Made by a program: the position numbers and the translations under genes. From Eledone cirrhosa (lineage: Eukaryota), in the NCBI GenBank assembly GCA_964016885.1, contig OZ024756.1, positions 25,420,001 through 25,484,000 on the forward strand: a DNA stretch of 64,000 bases. Direction: 5' to 3'. Below are positions 975 through 39,503 of this stretch, in pieces. Position 1 is the stretch's first letter; each line of letters starts with the position of its first letter. A model generated the notes under the pieces. It did no database searches and was not told where the DNA came from. It was given only the letters and a program-made list of their open reading frames with translations.

Positions 975-1047
<73 letters not shown>

Positions 1048-1176
1048 ATCAAAAGATGGTTAAATGAGTTCCATGTATTTTATTATGCGCATATTATGCT
1101 TCTTATCCGATATCTGCATTGCTTTATTGTACTACAATAAAACTCACCTCCTACATATATATATATATATATATAT

Positions 1177-3575
1177 AATATATAAGAACAAAAGATGGTT
1201 AAAAGAGTTCCATGTATTTTATTATGCGCATTTCAAAAACAAATATCATCATGCAATAATATTTGTGTTTTCATCAGATAAAACAGGAAGACATGATATG
1301 AAGGTTAAAAAACACTTGTGGATAGTGCAGTTTTAAATCAACATATGAAAAGTAGTTTTAGATTGATGTGTGATATTGGGAAAAATATTTTATTTTGAGG
1401 GGGGGGGATGAAAAGGAGGAGGAGATGAGAGTAAAAAGCGGAGAGGGAGGAGTATAATGAGGAAGGATGAGATAGGAGGAGAGATGGGTGATAGAGAGAG
1501 AGAGAGGTAGCTTTTATAACTGAGAAAGATATATTGTTTTACATAGAGAGGTTGAAAACCGTTGGAAGATAATGTATAAATTAAAAGAATTTGAAAATTA
1601 ACGAAGAGAAATAATGTAAAGTTAAGGTTTGAATATTGAGGGGTTTAATAATATGTGCGATGAAAAGAAAATGTTAATATGTATTAAGAATAATATTTAA
1701 GGGTTTAATAACATGTGCGATGGAAAAGAAAAAGTTAATATGTATTAAGAATAATATATAATATGTGCGATGGAAGGAAAATGTTGATATGTATTATTAA
1801 AAAGAACAACATGTAATTTAAGTAAGGATATATTGTGAGATGAGCATGAATGAGTTAGATGAAAGGGAGAAAAAAATAATGAATTGAGGATGAATAATCT
1901 AACGTCAAAAAAATGTTTGTTTACGAAGGATTTTTACAAGGTGATATAGAGTAAGAATGTATTGTATTATGTAATAATTGATTCTATGTTAGGCAACAGT
2001 GAGAAAAGGTACAGATTAGGGGTTAGACATTAAAAGAAAAGGAGAAGAAAGGGAAGTGATAAATAGGAGCGATATAGAATGGGTAACAGGTATTATAGAA
2101 TGTATAATAACCTTTGAAATAAGGTAGAAAAGATGGGTATATTTTTAAAGAAGTGTATATATATATATGTGTGCCTTTGAGAAAAAGATTCTAAATTGAT
2201 AAAGAATATTAGCTGTATACTTTGTGGAATGTTTTGTGGAATTTATGCAAGCAGATAGAAAACAAGTCAGTGCGTCTATTTATTATAGAATCTAAATTAG
2301 ATATAATGGTAAATTTTTCATTTAGACAGAGATTGCAAATTTTGGATAGAGAACTGTTCAAAGACGCAGAAGAAACCTTCTTCCAAAAGATGCTATATTT
2401 AATATTTTTGTCTTTCAAGGACCATATGAGTTCTGAGAGAGCCGTGTTGGTTCTTTTAAGTTTGTATTTAAAAGACGAATGATGGTTATAAAGACGAGCT
2501 TTAAAAGAGGTGGAAGTGGAGCCAAAATAGGTGAAGGAATTGGTGTCTATAATACCTGTTACTCATTCTATATCGCTCCTATTTATCACTTCCCTTTCTT
2601 CTCCTTTTCTTTTAATGTCTAACCCCTAATCTGTACCTTTTCTCACAGTTGCCTAACATAGAATCAATTATTACATAATACAATACATTCTTACTCTATA
2701 TCACCTTGTAAAATTCCTTCGTAAAGAAACATTTTTTTGACGTTAGATTATTCATCCTCAATTCATTATTTTTTTCTCCCTTTCATCTAACTCATTCATG
2801 CTCATCTCACAATATATCCTTACTTAAATTACATGTTGTTCTTTCTAATAATACATATCAACATTTTCCTTCCATCGCACATATTATTAAACCCTTAAAT
2901 ATTATTCTTAATACATATTAACTTTTTCTTTTCCATCGCACATGTTATTAAACCCTTAAATATTATTCTTAATACATATTAACATTTTCTTTTCATCGCA
3001 CATATTATTAAACCCCTCAATATTCAAACCTTAACTTTACATTATTTCTCTTCGTTAATTTTCAAATTCTTTTAATTTATACATTATCTTCCAACGGTTT
3101 TCAACCTCTCTATGTAAAACAATATATCTTTCTCAGTTATAAAAGCTATCTCTCTCTCTCTATCACCCATCTCTCCTCCTATCTCATCCTTCCTCATTAT
3201 ACTCCTCCCTCTCCGCTTTTTACTCTCATCTCCTCCTCTTTTTCATCCTTTCCACCCCCCATCCCCCCTCAAAATAAAATATTTTTCCCAATATCACACA
3301 TCAATCTAAAACTACTTTTCATATGTTGATTTAAAACTGCACTATCCACAAGTGTTTTTTAACCTTCATATCATGTCTTCCTGTTTTATCTGATGGAAAC
3401 ACAAATATTATTGCATGATGATATTTGTTTTTGAAATGCGCATAATAAAATACATGGAAATCTTTTAACCATCTTTTGTTCTTATATATTATGTATACTC
3501 CAGTCCTACAAACTGTAGAGTGCTTCTTATCCGATATCTGCATTGCTTTATTGTACTACAACAAAACTCACCTCC

Positions 3576-3580
<5 letters not shown>
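1177..3580 (-). mobile_element. 5'-truncated Penelope-like (Naiad-type) element with an inverted ~920-bp terminal repeat
   Basis: Minus strand 2209-2547 encodes the GIY-YIG C-terminal half (YFGSTSTSFKARLYNHHSSF...LSELIWSLK...CNLCLNEK...CLH). Arms 1177-2099 and 2546-3490 are reverse complements, and each carries a hammerhead. Confidence 0.85.
1217..1283 (-). ncRNA. Type I hammerhead ribozyme; inverted twin at 3384-3450 (+) has CTGATGG
   Basis: ttttat-CTGATGA-stem II-GAAA-tgcgca-TA-ataaaa; stem I ttttat/ataaaa; palindromic stem III. Confidence 0.8.
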
Positions 3581-3641
<61 letters not shown>

Positions 3642-4187
3642 TAACAGATTAAAGTTTAAGCAAAGAATCGCTGCTTTCACCCTTAACGGGATCTTCTGAA
3701 ACTAACCTTTGGATTTTAGTCTTCAAATTTATTATTATTACTATATATATTACTATATATATATAGTTTCTTACAGACTCATGGTTGCAAGCTCTCTTAA
3801 TCTGCCTGTACATCCTGTATTTGCACTGTTTGTGCTTTGATGTATCTATGCTTTGCTTTGTTGTTTTTTTTGTTTTTGTTTTTTGTTTTGTTTTTTTTCG
3901 GTCGGGGGGGGGGGTATTGTTTTTCTTTTTATTGTTTTTGATCATGCTGAGTAACACCTTCACTCATTCCTTGCTACCCTCTCCCAACCTCCTTACCATC
4001 TATTGCACCAGTTATGTGATACATTTTTATGGAATTTTTGATGGAATTTTTTATGACATTATGTGCGTCATGTATTGTGTCTTTTTCTATATAGCGCTGG
4101 CCTCGGGGCGTCCCTGCTGGTCCTTTAACCTTGTTCTGGTGATGCAGCTTGATGGAGCATGCAACTATTGATATACTCTTGTTTATA

Positions 4188-4279: not shown

Positions 4280-4320
<41 letters not shown>

Positions 4321-4599
4321 GTGAGGTTTTTTTACAAAATGAAAAATAACCGGTGTCCTACACCAGTGAAAGTATAAAGAAAAAAAGAGGAAATTGAAAA
4401 TGCAACCGGAGTCTTATTTTTAAAAAAATATATATATTTATTTGGTTCCTTTACCGGTTTCGCAGTTCTTCTGCTTTTCAAAAGTAGAGTTGAGATGGAG
4501 GGTCTGTGATTTTTCTCGTGAGAAAAACCACAGACCCTCCAAGATCCCGTTAAGGGTGAAAGCAGCGATTCTTTGCTTAAACTTTAATCTGTTATTTTA

Positions 4600-4655
<56 letters not shown>

Positions 4656-4659
<4 letters not shown>

Positions 4660-7600
4660 AATTAAGTCAAAGATGTACATCCATATATGTATACTGAAAT
4701 ACTAGTATGTATATGAATACACACACGTATACATATGTAGATGTACCAAGTTTTTTTTCACTGATCACTTTACTGTGAGTGGCCAGCTATTCTGTATGTA
4801 AACACACAGACAAACCGGTTTTTAGAGTCATACTGGTTTTTGAGGAAACACCTTTCCTCTATTCTTCAGAAAGCCAGACAAGGAATATTGAACTAGTTTC
4901 GTTGTTGTTACAACTCATCAGCAATATTTACCTATCTTCCGGCCTCTCTAGAGAATCGTAAAAGCACATATCGCTATATGCTTTTTCTATGAAAATTAGT
5001 AGTGGGCAGACCAACTTGCATAGAGTGTGAGTAAGTACCGGTTCAACGGAGACGATAAAAACAAATAACGAAACGAAATTAAATTTCGTTTCGTTTGTAA
5101 CTCACTTTTGTATGACTGACGCTCAAACAATTAAGTCAAAGATGTACATCCATATATGTATACTGAAATACTAGTATGTATATGAATACACACACGTATA
5201 CATATGTAGATGTACCAAGTTTTTTTTTCACTGATCACTTTACTGTGAGTGGCCAGCTATTCTGTATGTAAACACACAGACAAACCGGTTTTTAGAGTCA
5301 TACTGGTTTTTGAGGAAACACCTTTCCTCTATTCTTCAGAAAGCCAGACAAGGAATATTGAACTAGTTTCGTTGTTGTTACAACTCATCAGCAATATTTA
5401 CCTATCTTCCGGCCTCTCTAGAGAATCGTAAAAGCACATATCGCTATATGCTTTTTCTATGAAAATTAGTAGTGGGCAGACCAACTTGCATAGAGTGTGA
5501 GTAAGTACCGGTTCAACGGAGACGATAAAAACAAATAACGAAACGAAATTAAATTTCGTTTCGTTTGTAACTCACTTTTGTATGACTGACGCTCAAACAA
5601 TTAAGTCAAAGATGTACATCCATATATGTATACTGAAATACTAGTATGTATATGAATACACACACGTATACATATGTAGATGTACCAAGTTTTTTTTTCA
5701 CTGATCACTTTACTGTGAGTGGCCAGCTATTCTGTATGTAAACACACAGACAAACCGGTTTTTAGAGTCATACTGGTTTTTGAGGAAACACCTTTCCTCT
5801 ATTCTTCAGAAAGCCAGACAAGGAATATTGAACTAGTTTCGTTGTTGTTACAACTCATCAGCAATATTTACCTATCTTCCGGCCTCTCTAGAGAATCGTA
5901 AAAGCACATATCGCTATATGCTTTTTCTATGAAAATTAGTAGTGGGCAGACCAACTTGCATAGAGTGTGAGTAAGTACCGGTTCAACGGAGACGATAAAA
6001 ACAAATAACGAAACGAAATTAAATTTCGTTTCGTTTGTAACTCACTTTTGTATGACTGACGCTCAAACAATTAAGTCAAAGATGTACATCCATATATGTA
6101 TACTGAAATACTAGTATGTATATGAATACACACACGTATACATATGTAGATGTACCAAGTTTTTTTTTCACTGATCACTTTACTGTGAGTGGCCAGCTAT
6201 TCTGTATGTAAACACACAGACAAACCGGTTTTTAGAGTCATACTGGTTTTTGAGGAAACACCTTTCCTCTATTCTTCAGAAAGCCAGACAAGGAATATTG
6301 AACTAGTTTCGTTGTTGTTACAACTCATCAGCAATATTTACCTATCTTCCGGCCTCTCTAGAGAATCGTAAAAGCACATATCGCTATATGCTTTTTCTAT
6401 GAAAATTAGTAGTGGGCAGACCAACTTGCATAGAGTGTGAGTAAGTACCGGTTCAACGGAGACGATAAAAACAAATAACGAAACGAAATTAAATTTCGTT
6501 TCGTTTGTAACTCACTTTTGTATGACTGACGCTCAAACAATTAAGTCAAAGATGTACATCCATATATGTATACTGAAATACTAGTATGTATATGAATACA
6601 CACACGTATACATATGTAGATGTACCAAGTTTTTTTTTCACTGATCACTTTACTGTGAGTGGTACATCTACATATGTATACGTGTGTGTATTCATATACA
6701 TACTAGTATTTCAGTATACATATATGGATGTACATCTTTGACTTAATTGTTTGAGCGTCAGTCATACAAAAGTGAGTTACAAACGAAACGAAATTTAATT
6801 TCGTTTCGTTATTTGTTTTTATCGTCTCCGTTGAACCGGTACTTACTCACACTCTATGCAAGTTGGTCTGCCCACTACTAATTTTCATAGAAAAAGCATA
6901 TAGCGATATGTGCTTTTACGATTCTCTAGAGAGGCCGGAAGATAGGTAAATATTGCTGATGAGTTGTAACAACAACGAAACTAGTTCAATATTCCTTGTC
7001 TGGCTTTCTGAAGAATAGAGGAAAGGTGTTTCCTCAAAAACCAGTATGACTCTAAAAACCGGTTTGTCTGTGTGTTTACATACAGAATAGCTGGCCACTC
7101 ACAGTAAAGTGATCAGTGAAAAAAAAAACTTGGTACATCTACATATGTATACGTGTGTGTATTCATATACATACTAGTATTTCAGTATACATATATGGAT
7201 GTACATCTTTGACTTAATTGTTTGAGCGTCAGTCATACAAAAGTGAGTTACAAACGAAACGAAATTTAATTTCGTTTCGTTATTTGTTTTTATCGTCTCC
7301 GTTGAACCGGTACTTACTCACACTCTATGCAAGTTGGTCTGCCCACTACTAATTTTCATAGAAAAAGCATATAGCGATATGTGCTTTTACGATTCTCTAG
7401 AGAGGCCGGAAGATAGGTAAATATTGCTGATGAGTTGTAACAACAACGAAACTAGTTCAATATTCCTTGTCTGGCTTTCTGAAGAATAGAGGAAAGGTGT
7501 TTCCTCAAAAACCAGTATGACTCTAAAAACCGGTTTGTCTGTGTGTTTACATACAGAATAGCTGGCCACTCACAGTAAAGTGATCAGTGAAAAAAAAACT

Positions 7601-9167
7601 TGGTACATCTACATATGTATACGTGTGTGTATTCATATACATACTAGTATTTCAGTATACATATATGGATGTACATCTTTGACTTAATTGTTTGAGCGTC
7701 AGTCATACAAAAGTGAGTTACAAACGAAACGAAATTTAATTTCGTTTCGTTATTTGTTTTTATCGTCTCCGTTGAACCGGTACTTACTCACACTCTATGC
7801 AAGTTGGTCTGCCCACTACTAATTTTCATAGAAAAAGCATATAGCGATATGTGCTTTTACGATTCTCTAGAGAGGCCGGAAGATAGGTAAATATTGCTGA
7901 TGAGTTGTAACAACAACGAAACTAGTTCAATATTCCTTGTCTGGCTTTCTGAAGAATAGAGGAAAGGTGTTTCCTCAAAAACCAGTATGACTCTAAAAAC
8001 CGGTTTGTCTGTGTGTTTACATACAGAATAGCTGGCCACTCACAGTAAAGTGATCAGTGAAAAAAAAACTTGGTACATCTACATATGTATACGTGTGTGT
8101 ATTCATATACATACTAGTATTTCAGTATACATATATGGATGTACATCTTTGACTTAATTGTTTGAGCGTCAGTCATACAAAAGTGAGTTACAAACGAAAC
8201 GAAATTTAATTTCGTTTCGTTATTTGTTTTTATCGTCTCCGTTGAACCGGTACTTACTCACACTCTATGCAAGTTGGTCTGCCCACTACTAATTTTCATA
8301 GAAAAAGCATATAGCGATATGTGCTTTTACGATTCTCTAGAGAGGCCGGAAGATAGGTAAATATTGCTGATGAGTTGTAACAACAACGAAACTAGTTCAA
8401 TATTCCTTGTCTGGCTTTCTGAAGAATAGAGGAAAGGTGTTTCCTCAAAAACCAGTATGACTCTAAAAACCGGTTTGTCTGTGTGTTTACATACAGAATA
8501 GCTGGCCACTCACAGTAAAGTGATCAGTGAAAAAAAAAACTTGGTACATCTACATATGTATACGTGTGTGTATTCATATACATACTAGTATTTCAGTATA
8601 CATATATGGATGTACATCTTTGACTTAATTGTTTGAGCGTCAGTCATACAAAAGTGAGTTACAAACGAAACGAAATTTAATTTCGTTTCGTTATTTGTTT
8701 TTATCGTCTCCGTTGAACCGGTACTTACTCACACTCTATGCAAGTTGGTCTGCCCACTACTAATTTTCATAGAAAAAGCATATAGCGATATGTGCTTTTA
8801 CGATTCTCTAGAGAGGCCGGAAGATAGGTAAATATTGCTGATGAGTTGTAACAACAACGAAACTAGTTCAATATTCCTTGTCTGGCTTTCTGAAGAATAG
8901 AGGAAAGGTGTTTCCTCAAAAACCAGTATGACTCTAAAAACCGGTTTGTCTGTGTGTTTACATACAGAATAGCTGGCCACTCACAGTAAAGTGATCAGTG
9001 AAAAAAAAACTTGGTACATCTACATATGTATACGTGTGTGTATTCATATACATACTAGTATTTCAGTATACATATATGGATGTACATCTTTGACTTAATT
9101 GTTTGAGCGTCAGTCATACAAAAGTGAGTTACAAACGAAACGAAATTTAATTTCGTTTCGTTATTTG

Positions 9168-9172
<5 letters not shown>
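4656..9172. repeat. 470-bp tandem array with central inversion; hammerhead ribozyme in every full monomer (retrozyme-like)
   Basis: Four full copies plus a partial one (4656-6660), then five full copies plus partials inverted (6661-9172). The only differences I found are in poly-T length. Flanked by (TA)n on both sides. Confidence 0.95.
6949..6993 (+). ncRNA. Minimal type I hammerhead of the 470-bp monomer (also 7420-7464, 7890-7934, 8360-8404, 8831-8875 on +; 4884-4928, 5354-5398, 5824-5868, 6294-6338 on -)
   Basis: aatattg-CTGATGA-gttg(taacaa)caac-GAAAC-ta-GTT-caatatt: 7-bp stem I, 4-bp stem II, palindromic AACTAGTT stem III. Confidence 0.9.
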
Positions 9173-9217
<45 letters not shown>

Positions 9218-10640: not shown

Positions 10641-10775
10641 GCGTGTGTATATATATATAGTGTGTAACGTTTTTCGAAATATTTACTTCTGCGTTCACAG
10701 ATTGATTTTTTTAGTTTCAGAAGATCCCGTTAAGGGTGAAAGCAGCGATTATTTGCTTAAACTTTAATCTGTTAT

Positions 10776-10846
<71 letters not shown>

Positions 10847-11409: not shown

Positions 11410-12240
<831 letters not shown>

Positions 12241-12467
12241 AAATTACAGATTAAGGTTTAAGCAAAGAATCGCTGCTTTCACCCTCAACGGATCTTCTGT
12301 ATATATATATATATAAGAATTAAAATACTAGAGTGTGTTGGAGTTAAACACCCTCTTCATATTATAGAAATGACAGTATAAGATATAGCTCAATGTAATT
12401 AAACAGAGCCGAAGAATTATAAAAAATTAAACCAAAGAAGCCTTCAATACATCAAAAGTATTTATTA

Positions 12468-13563: not shown

Positions 13564-32399
<18,836 letters not shown>

Positions 32400-36769: not shown

Positions 36770-37330
<561 letters not shown>

Positions 37331-37747: not shown

Positions 37748-37750
<3 letters not shown>

Positions 37751-39503
37751 TTTACGTATCGAGAAAGAGAGAAAAAATGGAGGGATAGGTGATACATATA
37801 GTTATTTGCCAAGTAGCGTATGCCAAAGGTGCTCGATACTAGTGCCGGCAGTCTTAAATATTCGAAGTGTTAATATTTAGTGGGCTAGAGAGTTAGCAGA
37901 GCGTAAGCACGTGGGAAAGTGAAAAATCGGAGAATAGACCGTTAAAACATGTTTATTGAAAATATCACCTACGTACGTTTCGCCCAGTTGGGCTTCTCAA
38001 GGGCATAAACAGTCACAAGTGTTCCTTATATAGTTTGGAAAGAGATTTGGGGGTTAAATCGACATCAAGATTCATCGCTCGCAAAAATATCTTGTTTTGA
38101 TTTTGCAGCAGGTCAAGGCAGGTAACTTTGGCCGGTGTTAGGGCAGTCTTTCCCGGATAATTTTTGGTATGCAGGGATCGTTTTCTGGGTGTTGTTTTGC
38201 TGCGCCTGCCCGCCGGGGGGTTAAGACTTGTTGCAGGGAGATCCAGTGTGTTATTTCACTCTCCATTCTTAACCCATCTAAAGAAGGATATTTTTAAGCG
38301 ATGTGTACAACTTATCACTGTTTCAGCTCTGCTGTTGATGAGCTCGTGGGGTGCAGTTATGATGTGGTAGAGCTCCATGAGGCAAAGATCGCATTTCCTC
38401 TTGAAGTTGTACGGTGCAGCCCTGTCGACAATCTCCCAGTGCGTGGAGAAGCTAATGTTTAAGTCCTTTAGTGATGTGATGTAGTCCGCTAGCGAGGTGG
38501 AGTGCCTTAGTTTTCTATTTGTGAAAGAGTGGAGATGTGTTCGAAACCTAATTTTGAACGGGCCGGAGGTGGCCCCTATATAATGTTTAACACTATTGTG
38601 GCTAGTAATAGTGCATCTATATATAACCCTATCGGTCAAGCAGTATCCTCTAAGGGGGCACCGTCCTCTGTCGCGGCAGTTGCAATTTCTGTCGCTGTTC
38701 CGTCTATTTCCCACGATAAGGCTATCATTGTTGCTGCCTACGTTGTTAGCTGTGCTACCGCAGCTGTCGTTAGCACAATTACAACCCACAGCACGCGGGA
38801 TGGTGCGATTGTTATTCCGCACGCCATGTTTTGCATGCTCCCCAGTCACTTCGCGGTCATTCTGGTTGCGTCTGCGGATGCCGTTGCCAACACTATTGGA
38901 TGCTGTCAGGGAGTTGTTAAGGCCGATACAGTTATTGTCAGGTGTAGGTGCGTCTGCGTTGAGGTGCTGTGTCTTGGTGATCTTACTGTGGTTCGTTGTT
39001 CCTATGATGTCTGCTAGGTTAGGAGTAGTAGAGAAGGATATTTTTATATTGTTCCTATTAAGAATTTTTCTATACCTATGGTTGGGTGGGAAGTTCTTCT
39101 CTAAGGCTTCGAAGAATATCCGGGGTATGTTGGAGGCCACACTTCGAGAGTAGGGGGGGGGGGGGGTGGAACCATAGGACGTTACGGTGGCGATTACGTG
39201 TCCTTGTACTTTTGCTACGGGTGGTTCCATCTAAGTGATCGCTCTTATGTGTGTTAATGCGCTGTCGCCCGTTCGGTGCCCCTTTCACTTTATGCTCGGG
39301 TGCACTCTTTCTACCACTTCCATGTTTATGTACACGAAGATGTTGGTTGGAAGGCGTTGGTAGTAGGCCGTCGCCTTTGTTGGTTTTGTAATAGGGGAAT
39401 AGTTTATGCCCTTGAGAAGCCCAACTGGGCGAAACGTACGTAGGTGATATTTTCAATAAACATGTTTTAACGGTCTATTCTCCGATTTTTCACTTTCCCA
39501 CGT
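37748..39503 (-). mobile_element. 5'-truncated Naiad-clade Penelope-like retroelement with inverted 102-bp pLTR (37909-38010 / 39402-39503)
   Basis: RNVLWFHPP|YSRSVASNI (frameshift in a G15 run), FPPNH..KILNRNNIKISFS, CNCRDRGRCPLRGYC, VIY..HYIG..FKIRF.THLHSF, CDLC..E, CTHR. Confidence 0.88.
38256..39230 (-). CDS. Penelope-like (Naiad) RT thumb/linker plus GIY-YIG endonuclease, partial ORF
   Basis: 324-aa open frame with GIY-YIG motifs and CxCx5C, HxxxF, CxLC and CxH signatures. Confidence 0.85.
   Translation of the reverse strand: MEPPVAKVQGHVIATVTSYGSTPPPPYSRSVASNIPRIFFEALEKNFPPNHRYRKILNRNNIKISFSTTPNLADIIGTTNHSKITKTQHLNADAPTPDNNCIGLNNSLTASNSVGNGIRRRNQNDREVTGEHAKHGVRNNNRTIPRAVGCNCANDSCGSTANNVGSNNDSLIVGNRRNSDRNCNCRDRGRCPLRGYCLTDRVIYRCTITSHNSVKHYIGATSGPFKIRFRTHLHSFTNRKLRHSTSLADYITSLKDLNISFSTHWEIVDRAAPYNFKRKCDLCLMELYHIITAPHELINSRAETVISCTHRLKISFFRWVKNGE

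What the first reader, a model, noticed from the sequence alone, without database searches (positions are those of the whole stretch)
6535..6760. Foldback junction turns the ribozyme array into a ~4-kb palindrome with outward-pointing ribozymes
Seen: the forward array stops at ...gtgagtGG and resumes inverted at GGtacatc (2-nt microhomology), leaving a 34-bp spacer (6627-6660) between arms of about 2 kb. Ribozyme-sense strands point away from the centre. The GIY-YIG elements at 1177-3580 and 37748-39503 and the pair at 36920-37282 have the same tails-out geometry. Inference: a template switch during Penelope-type reverse transcription of a circular or multimeric RNA could produce both the tandem copies and the inversion in one insertion event.
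Basis: partly seen in the sequence, partly recalled or inferred. Interest (0 to 1): 0.7.

Follow-up and report, generated by a model that had tools for sequence, protein, structure and literature searches.

The report
Ribozyme circle copied from both ends
This 4.5-kb mirror-image array is one of well over a thousand insertions of a 470-base repeat carrying a predicted self-cutting RNA motif, and its two different fixed ends and shared rare mutations suggest that a Penelope-type transposon enzyme likely copied one small RNA circle round and round from both sides of a DNA cut.

Summary
The inversion is in the assembly and is the family's normal insertion form, not a one-off. The array is a non-LTR retrozyme: a 470-bp unit with a minimal type I hammerhead, 4.3 copies on the minus strand and 5.3 on the plus strand, joined by 3-nt microhomology. 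Of the first 41 family ends on contig C1, 35 have an inverted arm. Outer ends are fixed at two sites 70 nt apart: 45 of 55 two-armed insertions have one of each, none has two alike, 10 have an end unseen or atypical. Central junctions vary, either arm can be longer, and 18 of 20 rare fixed variants are shared by both arms. This favours twin priming from both target strands on one, probably circular, RNA over a fold-back template switch. An autonomous Hydra-like Penelope family follows the same one-of-each rule (9 of 9). Inverted copies and tails are known for Penelope elements; I found no report of them for retrozymes. The scan noted the same model on other repeat families of this genome. The RNA circle, cleavage, the partner enzyme and read support for this junction were not shown. 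The 36920-37282 pair is a different, fixed-centre element.

The parts
4600..4655 (.). left (TA)n target microsatellite
4656..6662 (-). left arm, 4.27 copies of the 470-bp unit; RNA-sense 3' end at 4656 = monomer position 236 (short end, inferred RT start site S)
6628..6659 (-). 32-nt unpaired spacer of the palindrome; part of the left arm
6660..6662 (.). inversion junction, 3-nt microhomology TGG (left arm 5' position 109, right arm 5' position 144)
6660..9174 (+). right arm, 5.35 copies; RNA-sense 3' end at 9174 = monomer position 306 (long end, inferred RT start site L)
9105..9174 (+). 70-nt tail between the two fixed ends, containing a 13-bp hairpin
9175..9215 (.). right (TA)n target microsatellite
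6949..6993 (+). minimal type I hammerhead motif (7-bp helix I, 5-bp helix II, palindromic helix III, GUU cut triplet); further copies at 7420, 7890, 8360, 8831
6294..6338 (-). same hammerhead motif on the minus strand; further copies at 5824-5868, 5354-5398, 4884-4928
1170..3580 (.). separate two-armed Penelope-like element: GIY-YIG remnant and hammerhead on minus, inverted arm with about 80-nt tail on plus
37748..39503 (-). separate 5'-truncated Hydra-like Penelope element (GIY-YIG ORF 38256-39230) with 102-bp inverted arm and 162-nt tail

Best explanation
The array is a non-coding hammerhead retrozyme insertion that was likely made by a Penelope-like RT/GIY-YIG enzyme through twin priming: both cut strands of a (TA)n target would prime reverse transcription on one RNA, probably a 470-nt circle. 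Inferred steps: (1) array transcripts self-cleave, probably as ribozyme dimers, and are ligated to circles; (2) the enzyme makes staggered nicks about 11-13 bp apart; (3) one 3' end starts at monomer position about 306 and the other at 232-236; (4) each RT rolls round the circle for a variable distance, from about 10 nt to more than 10 turns; (5) the two cDNA ends are joined by 0-5 nt microhomology or a short filler and the gaps are filled. This yields a head-to-head array with tails out and a 70-nt tail on one side. Shown here: the geometry, the fixed one-of-each ends, variable junctions, target duplications at informative sites, shared variants. Not shown: the RNA, its circularity, cleavage, the enzyme.
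For: Inversion is the norm: 17 of 19 long arrays and 35 of the first 41 long ends on C1. One-of-each ends: 45 of 55 two-armed insertions are L+S, 0 L+L, 0 S+S; sampling from S ends gave 12 L partners and no S partner in 20 loci. Arm length does not follow end type (S longer 19, L longer 26; 23 of 45 differ more than twofold). One template: 18 of 20 rare variants fixed in at least 2 copies of one arm are carried by the other arm (13 insertions); the window's own variant at position 25 is in all nine copies that cover it. Read-through of the ribozyme site: 5' ends do not cluster (78 ends, KS p=0.34). Microhomology of 2 nt or more in 11 of 24 clean joins vs 17.5% by chance (p=0.001). Target duplication of 12 bp at L036/L037 and 11-13 bp at L039, L049, L050. 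Unit folds far better than shuffles as a circle (z -9.4). Same rule in an autonomous Hydra-like family, 9 of 9. In vitro, a Penelope-like protein nicks and extends both strands and starts at two internal RNA sites that bound the tail (PMC11167929).
Against: No autonomous element with sequence homology to the unit was found; only one Penelope family was compared. Circle and linear multimer cannot be separated by DNA alone: a homogeneous donor array would also give shared variants, and only 80 of roughly 2000 loci were sampled. Periodic variants in L033, L044, L045, L049 and L055 need multimeric templates or later duplication. 2 of 20 rare variants are not shared. 11 of 80 sampled ends or arrays show no inverted arm (2 of 19, 6 of 41, 3 of 20). 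Junction offsets are slightly shorter than uniform (p=0.039) and 4 of 39 are near-perfect palindromes. Arm lengths correlate weakly (rho 0.32, p=0.03; the set includes arrays picked for length). In vitro, start sites did not differ between strands, so the strict pairing is unexplained. The window's position-25 variant is not private: 205 exact matches genome-wide. No target duplication is visible in the window's pure TA flanks.
Confidence: 0.68

Rival explanations
1. Fold-back template switch: one cDNA is primed at the target, the RT turns back on its own product, and the second end is set by endonuclease cleavage at the other tail boundary.
For: Explains shared variants and microhomology. 4 of 39 junctions are near-perfect palindromes and 10 of 39 have offsets of 40 nt or less, the window's 35 among them. 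Craig 2021 ascribes the tail to EN-mediated resolution (PMC8557442).
Against: The copy cannot exceed its template, yet either end type can be the longer arm, with an 11-nt L arm beside 6.6 kb (L040) and a 13-nt S arm beside 3.2 kb (L041), so either end would have to go first and the copy stop exactly at the other site. Only 6 of 125 minority substitutions are in both arms, although many may postdate insertion. Offsets run to 231 nt.
Confidence: 0.12
2. Twin priming, but on a linear multimeric transcript or on two RNA molecules from one donor locus rather than on one monomer circle.
For: Accounts for geometry and ends equally well. Periodic variants in a few arrays. Ribozyme cleavage was dispensable in vitro for the anole element. 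The young subfamily has a GUU triplet where older copies have GUC, which may cleave less well (recalled).
Against: Rare variants fill every unit of both arms (10+2 copies in L147, 6+2 in L067, 5+4 in L050), which needs an unsampled homogeneous donor for each. Arrays reach about 14.6 kb (L055/L145), a long uncleaved transcript.
Confidence: 0.14
3. Self-priming on an antisense template, as proposed for rotifer Penelope elements, or later rearrangement and gene conversion of simple tandem arrays.
For: Published model for head-to-head Penelope repeats with junction palindromes (PMC3846280). Conversion could spread variants across arms.
Against: Most junctions are far from palindromic. Neither process predicts two different fixed outer ends with a target duplication around the whole unit.
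Confidence: 0.04
4. Long-read fold-back chimera or mis-assembly.
For: No short-read contig bridging this junction was listed (inconclusive, see Tried and rejected). Palindromes are a known long-read artefact class (recalled).
Against: A fold-back read would mirror the flanks; here unique flanks differ on the two sides. Dozens of loci share two fixed ends and target duplications. Short-read contigs independently show TA joined at both end positions (loose ends at 6822 and 6748).
Confidence: 0.02

Closest known systems
Metazoan non-LTR retrozymes (Cervera and de la Pena 2020, PMC7229834, passages; Li, Clavereau, Pollet 2026, bioRxiv 10.64898/2026.07.22.740005, main text parts 1-3 of 5 and a term search)
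   Same: Non-coding tandem units with one type I hammerhead each, low GC, dispersed dimers to multimers, target duplications above 4 bp, proposed circle-templated tandem cDNA and proposed Penelope mobilisation.
   Different: Neither main text describes central inversions, fixed paired ends or a tail ('inverted' 0 hits in the first, 1 hit in a reference title in the second; supplements not seen). The unit (470 nt) is above the 170-400 nt of the first paper and within the 51-972 bp of the second. RNA and cleavage untested here.
Endonuclease-bearing Penelope-like elements (Craig 2021 PMC8557442, passages and section 11; Arkhipova 2013 PMC3846280, passages)
   Same: Inverted 5'-truncated copy head-to-head, tail at one end, (TA)n targeting, 8-10 bp duplications in rotifers, hammerhead with palindromic helix III (PMC4209133, passages).
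   Different: No ORF; both arms are multi-unit rolls of one small unit; tail is 70 nt rather than 30-40; those papers explain inversions by undefined steps, EN resolution or antisense self-priming.
Poseidon element of the green anole in vitro (Frangieh 2024, PMC11167929, main text parts 1-2 of 4)
   Same: Both target strands nicked and extended, two internal RT start sites bounding the tail, AT-rich targets, predicted dimer.
   Different: No strand difference in start site was seen in vitro and no circle was tested; here each insertion uses one of each site and rolls many times.
LINE-1 twin priming (recalled; no paper read)
   Same: Two target ends prime on one RNA and the cDNAs join by microhomology, giving tails-out inversion.
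   Different: In LINE-1 the second priming site varies and the arms cover mostly non-overlapping parts; here both sites are fixed and the arms overlap fully.

Membership tests
Metazoan non-LTR retrozyme | Tandem units, each with a type I hammerhead | tested here: met
   9 motifs at 470-bp spacing; Rfam gave no match at gathering scores
Metazoan non-LTR retrozyme | No protein-coding frame, dispersed high copy number | tested here: met
   No ORF of 120 aa or more in 4656-9174; 1980 exact long-end matches, control 0
Metazoan non-LTR retrozyme | Target-site duplication longer than 4 bp | tested here: met
   12 bp at L036/L037, 11-13 bp at L039, L049, L050; not visible in the window
Metazoan non-LTR retrozyme | Expressed as linear and circular monomer RNA; self-cleavage | not testable with these tools
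   No RNA holder listed; only a predicted stable circular fold
Penelope-like insertion product | Head-to-head inverted 5'-truncated copy | tested here: met
   35 of 41 and 17 of 19
Penelope-like insertion product | Two fixed 3' ends with a tail between them | tested here: met
   Positions 232-236 and 300-306; 45 L+S, none alike
Penelope-like insertion product | Homology to the pseudo-LTR of an autonomous element | tested here: inconclusive
   No match to the Hydra-like family's own sequence in 22 loci; other Penelope families not compared
Autonomous Penelope-like element | RT plus GIY-YIG ORF | tested here: not met
   Array has none; it works like a passenger of such an element
Hydra clade (for the neighbour at 37748-39503) | RWK, DKT, CxCx5C linker, no CCHH, (TA)n target | tested here: met
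   Motifs read by eye in the 928-aa frame of L103 against Craig section 11; no tree built

The most novel reading that the evidence does not exclude
Penelope-type enzymes integrate by asymmetric twin priming: a dimer holds one RNA circle, each subunit starts at its own fixed site from its own target strand, and both roll. This one mechanism would explain Penelope pseudo-LTRs, head-to-head inversions, the one-sided tail and retrozyme tandem arrays, and these arrays would be the first genomic footprints of rolling-circle reverse transcription of ribozyme circles in animals.
Probability: 0.55. Interest if true: 0.78.

Novelty: new variant of a known kind. Interest (0 to 1): 0.58.

Why it matters
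How Penelope-like elements make their tandem and inverted copies, and which enzyme moves animal retrozymes, are both stated as open in the papers read. A young, abundant family with strict one-of-each ends and arm-shared variants turns these into a direct assay: purified protein, a 470-nt circle and a (TA)n target should give two-armed concatemers. It also means that over a thousand multi-kilobase palindromes in this genome are normal transposition products, relevant to assembly checks, genome stability and double-stranded RNA formation. The junction in this window is itself just one example.

Tried and rejected
Read support: no RNA holder listed. Laying Logan contigs on 6605-7075 and 6612-6712 listed no piece bridging the junction, but the lists were cut (907 and 113 pieces not shown), the runs may be another individual, and the only joint shown (6662 to 7075) is the ordinary tandem continuation; inconclusive. 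Empty-site test not possible across (TA)n with contigs. Rfam: no match. Pfam did not recognise the GIY-YIG frame. Partner search: low-stringency BLAST of the unit against 22 loci of the Hydra-like family hit only other retrozyme copies and TA/CA-rich noise; an own-genome search with the tail region returned only retrozyme copies. The first microhomology script mis-anchored many junctions and its counts were dropped; only its chance rates were kept; one search replaces it, and some of its 14 'extra base' joins may be method artefacts from nearby substitutions. The idea that the position-25 variant is private was rejected. The 36920-37282 pair was rejected as an example. L080 was dropped as a duplicate of L079. 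Literature searches for a prior report showed none on inverted retrozyme arrays or Penelope twin priming; subscription papers and supplements were not seen. A search of earlier scan notes by sequence returned nothing.

Full report
Observation. The window holds a 470-bp tandem on the minus strand at 4656-6662 and on the plus strand at 6660-9174, between two (TA)n runs. The exact arms end inward at 6627 and 6660, leaving 32 unpaired bases; the join has 3 nt of microhomology. Each unit carries a minimal type I hammerhead motif with a palindromic helix III and a GUU triplet, on the strand pointing outward. Rfam does not score it. Such helix III motifs are described as working in dimers and occur in Penelope repeats (PMC4209133, passages). 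As a circle the unit folds to -145.6 kcal/mol against -95.1 +/- 5.4 for 60 shuffles. Positions below count from the base after the predicted cut.

Is it unique or an artefact? No. The own genome holds 1980 exact matches to the right-hand end plus TA, against 0 for the control. Of 19 other long arrays from the first search, 15 have a long inverted arm, 2 an 11-13 nt inverted arm read by eye, and 2 none; these were picked for similarity and length. For a fairer sample I took the first 41 listed ends on C1. 30 pair with an inverted arm ending at 232-236 (23 long, 5 of 10-20 nt, 2 resolved with further stretches), 1 is inverted with the far end out of view, 4 are inverted with an atypical far end, and 6 have no inverted arm. 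L079 and L080 look like one duplicated insertion. The reciprocal sample was 20 of 330 ends at position 236 on C1, skipping 11 already matched to a long end. It gave 12 partners ending at 304-306, 1 inverted out of view, 2 inverted and interrupted, 1 complex, 3 without, 1 running off. All inversions are tails-out.

Anatomy. Over 80 loci, 55 have two arms of at least 60 nt: 45 pair a long end (L, 299-310) with a short end (S, 226-237), none pairs like with like, and 10 have an end unseen or atypical. The S arm is longer in 19 and the L arm in 26. Central 5' ends spread over the unit and do not gather at the ribozyme cut (78 ends, p=0.34); the offset between the two runs from 0 to 231 nt, slightly shorter than uniform (p=0.039), with 4 of 39 near-perfect palindromes at internal hairpins. 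Of 39 junctions 38 were scored: 24 have no extra bases and 11 of these have 2 nt or more of microhomology (17.5% by chance, p=0.001); 14 carry extra bases, some clearly re-copied unit sequence. One array sits in non-TA sequence and is flanked by a 12-bp duplication; three in imperfect TA show 11-13 bp. So the two-armed unit is one insertion.

One template. The family has subfamilies at about 85-99% identity to the window's unit, and the two arms of an insertion always match each other: among 22 scored insertions of the C1 sample, 16 have no other sampled arm as close. Of 20 variants that are rare among sampled arms and fixed in at least two copies of one arm, the other arm carries 18 (13 insertions). 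In the window an A at position 25 fills all nine copies that cover it, while 19 other young arrays have G; it recurs 205 times in the genome, so it is not private. In contrast, only 6 of 125 minority substitutions occur in both arms. Shared fixed variants with unshared sporadic ones are what two independent copying runs on one template give. Caveats: sporadic changes may postdate insertion, a homogeneous donor array could mimic a circle, and a few arrays show periodic variants.

Neighbours. The element at 37748-39503 belongs to an abundant young family (150 scored matches at 95-100%) with intact frames of about 927 aa bearing the motifs given for the Hydra clade (PMC8557442 section 11; no tree built). 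It has two fixed ends 162 nt apart; 9 of 10 loci fetched whole show two arms and all 9 have one end of each kind (loci were picked for long frames or paired hits, not for end type). The element at 1170-3580 has a GIY-YIG remnant, a hammerhead and an 80-nt tail in the same layout. The pair at 36920-37282 is a unit of constant length and centre, so a fold-back or MITE-like element. No sequence link between the retrozyme unit and the Hydra-like family was found, so the partner is unknown.

Mechanism. In vitro, the anole Poseidon protein nicks and extends both target strands, starts at two internal RNA sites that bound the genomic tail, and is predicted to be a dimer (PMC11167929). Applying this to a ribozyme circle gives the observed product: both target ends prime, one at L and one at S, each rolls a variable distance, and the cDNA ends join by microhomology. 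A fold-back switch needs the second arm to be no longer than the first and to stop at a fixed site, which fits poorly with 11-13 nt arms of either type beside kilobase partners. The antisense self-priming model (PMC3846280) predicts junction palindromes, seen in a minority. I put twin priming on one circle at 0.68, on linear or paired RNAs at 0.14, fold-back at 0.12, others at 0.06.

What is known and new. Retrozymes, their circles and the proposal of Penelope mobilisation are published (PMC7229834, passages; bioRxiv 10.64898/2026.07.22.740005, parts 1-3 of 5). Inverted copies and tails are standard for Penelope elements. I found no report of two-armed retrozyme arrays, of the one-of-each rule, or of twin priming for Penelope elements (searches; supplements and subscription papers not seen). 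Earlier scan notes reach the same model for 310-, 450- and 592-bp families of this genome; my reading was set down before that look-up, and those notes are not evidence. Read-level support for this junction, expression and cleavage remain untested.

Verdict. Real, systematic and mechanistically informative; a new variant of a known kind. Interest 0.58.

Noticed in passing
window 36920-37282; L113-L124: Fold-back or MITE-like unit with about 140-bp or longer inverted repeats and a conserved centre; many copies are cut at the same point by (GA)n or (TA)n.
   Followed up: partly
window 37748-39503; L103-L107: Young Hydra-like Penelope family with intact frames of about 927 aa, 60600 first-look candidates, 162-nt tail, and a hammerhead-like motif with a U3-A8 type core in its repeat (read by eye). 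A candidate source of protein for in vitro work.
   Followed up: partly
window 1045-1155: 110-bp mini-insertion made only of the two ends of the 1170-3580 Penelope family, back to back in (TA)n.
   Followed up: no
window 4315-4600, also 3636-3695, 10711-10780, 12240-12299: Ends of another abundant (TA)n-tailed element; its TA run is the target of the array (nested insertion).
   Followed up: no
L107:1700-2100, L108:1380-2000, L139: Sister retrozyme family with a related hammerhead and a tail sharing short motifs with this family's tail; L108 is two-armed with two different ends. The shared motifs may be the RT-binding signal.
   Followed up: partly
L033, L044, L045, L049, L055: Variants repeating every 2 or 6 units within one arm, pointing to multimeric templates or later duplication.
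   Followed up: partly
monomer position 470 (window 7457): The young subfamily has a GUU cut triplet; older subfamilies have GUC.
   Followed up: no
runs X4, X5: The unit is held in runs under many organism labels (16 studies); X4 has a single 503-nt near-identical, circular-looking contig at depth 10. Contamination, relatives or transfer; unresolved.
   Followed up: no
window 22414-22966 and 30622-31117: Two further 500-550-bp palindromes inserted in (TA)n; family not determined.
   Followed up: no
G000:C1:5738088-5752750 (L055, L145): A two-armed array of about 14.6 kb, some 31 units.
   Followed up: partly
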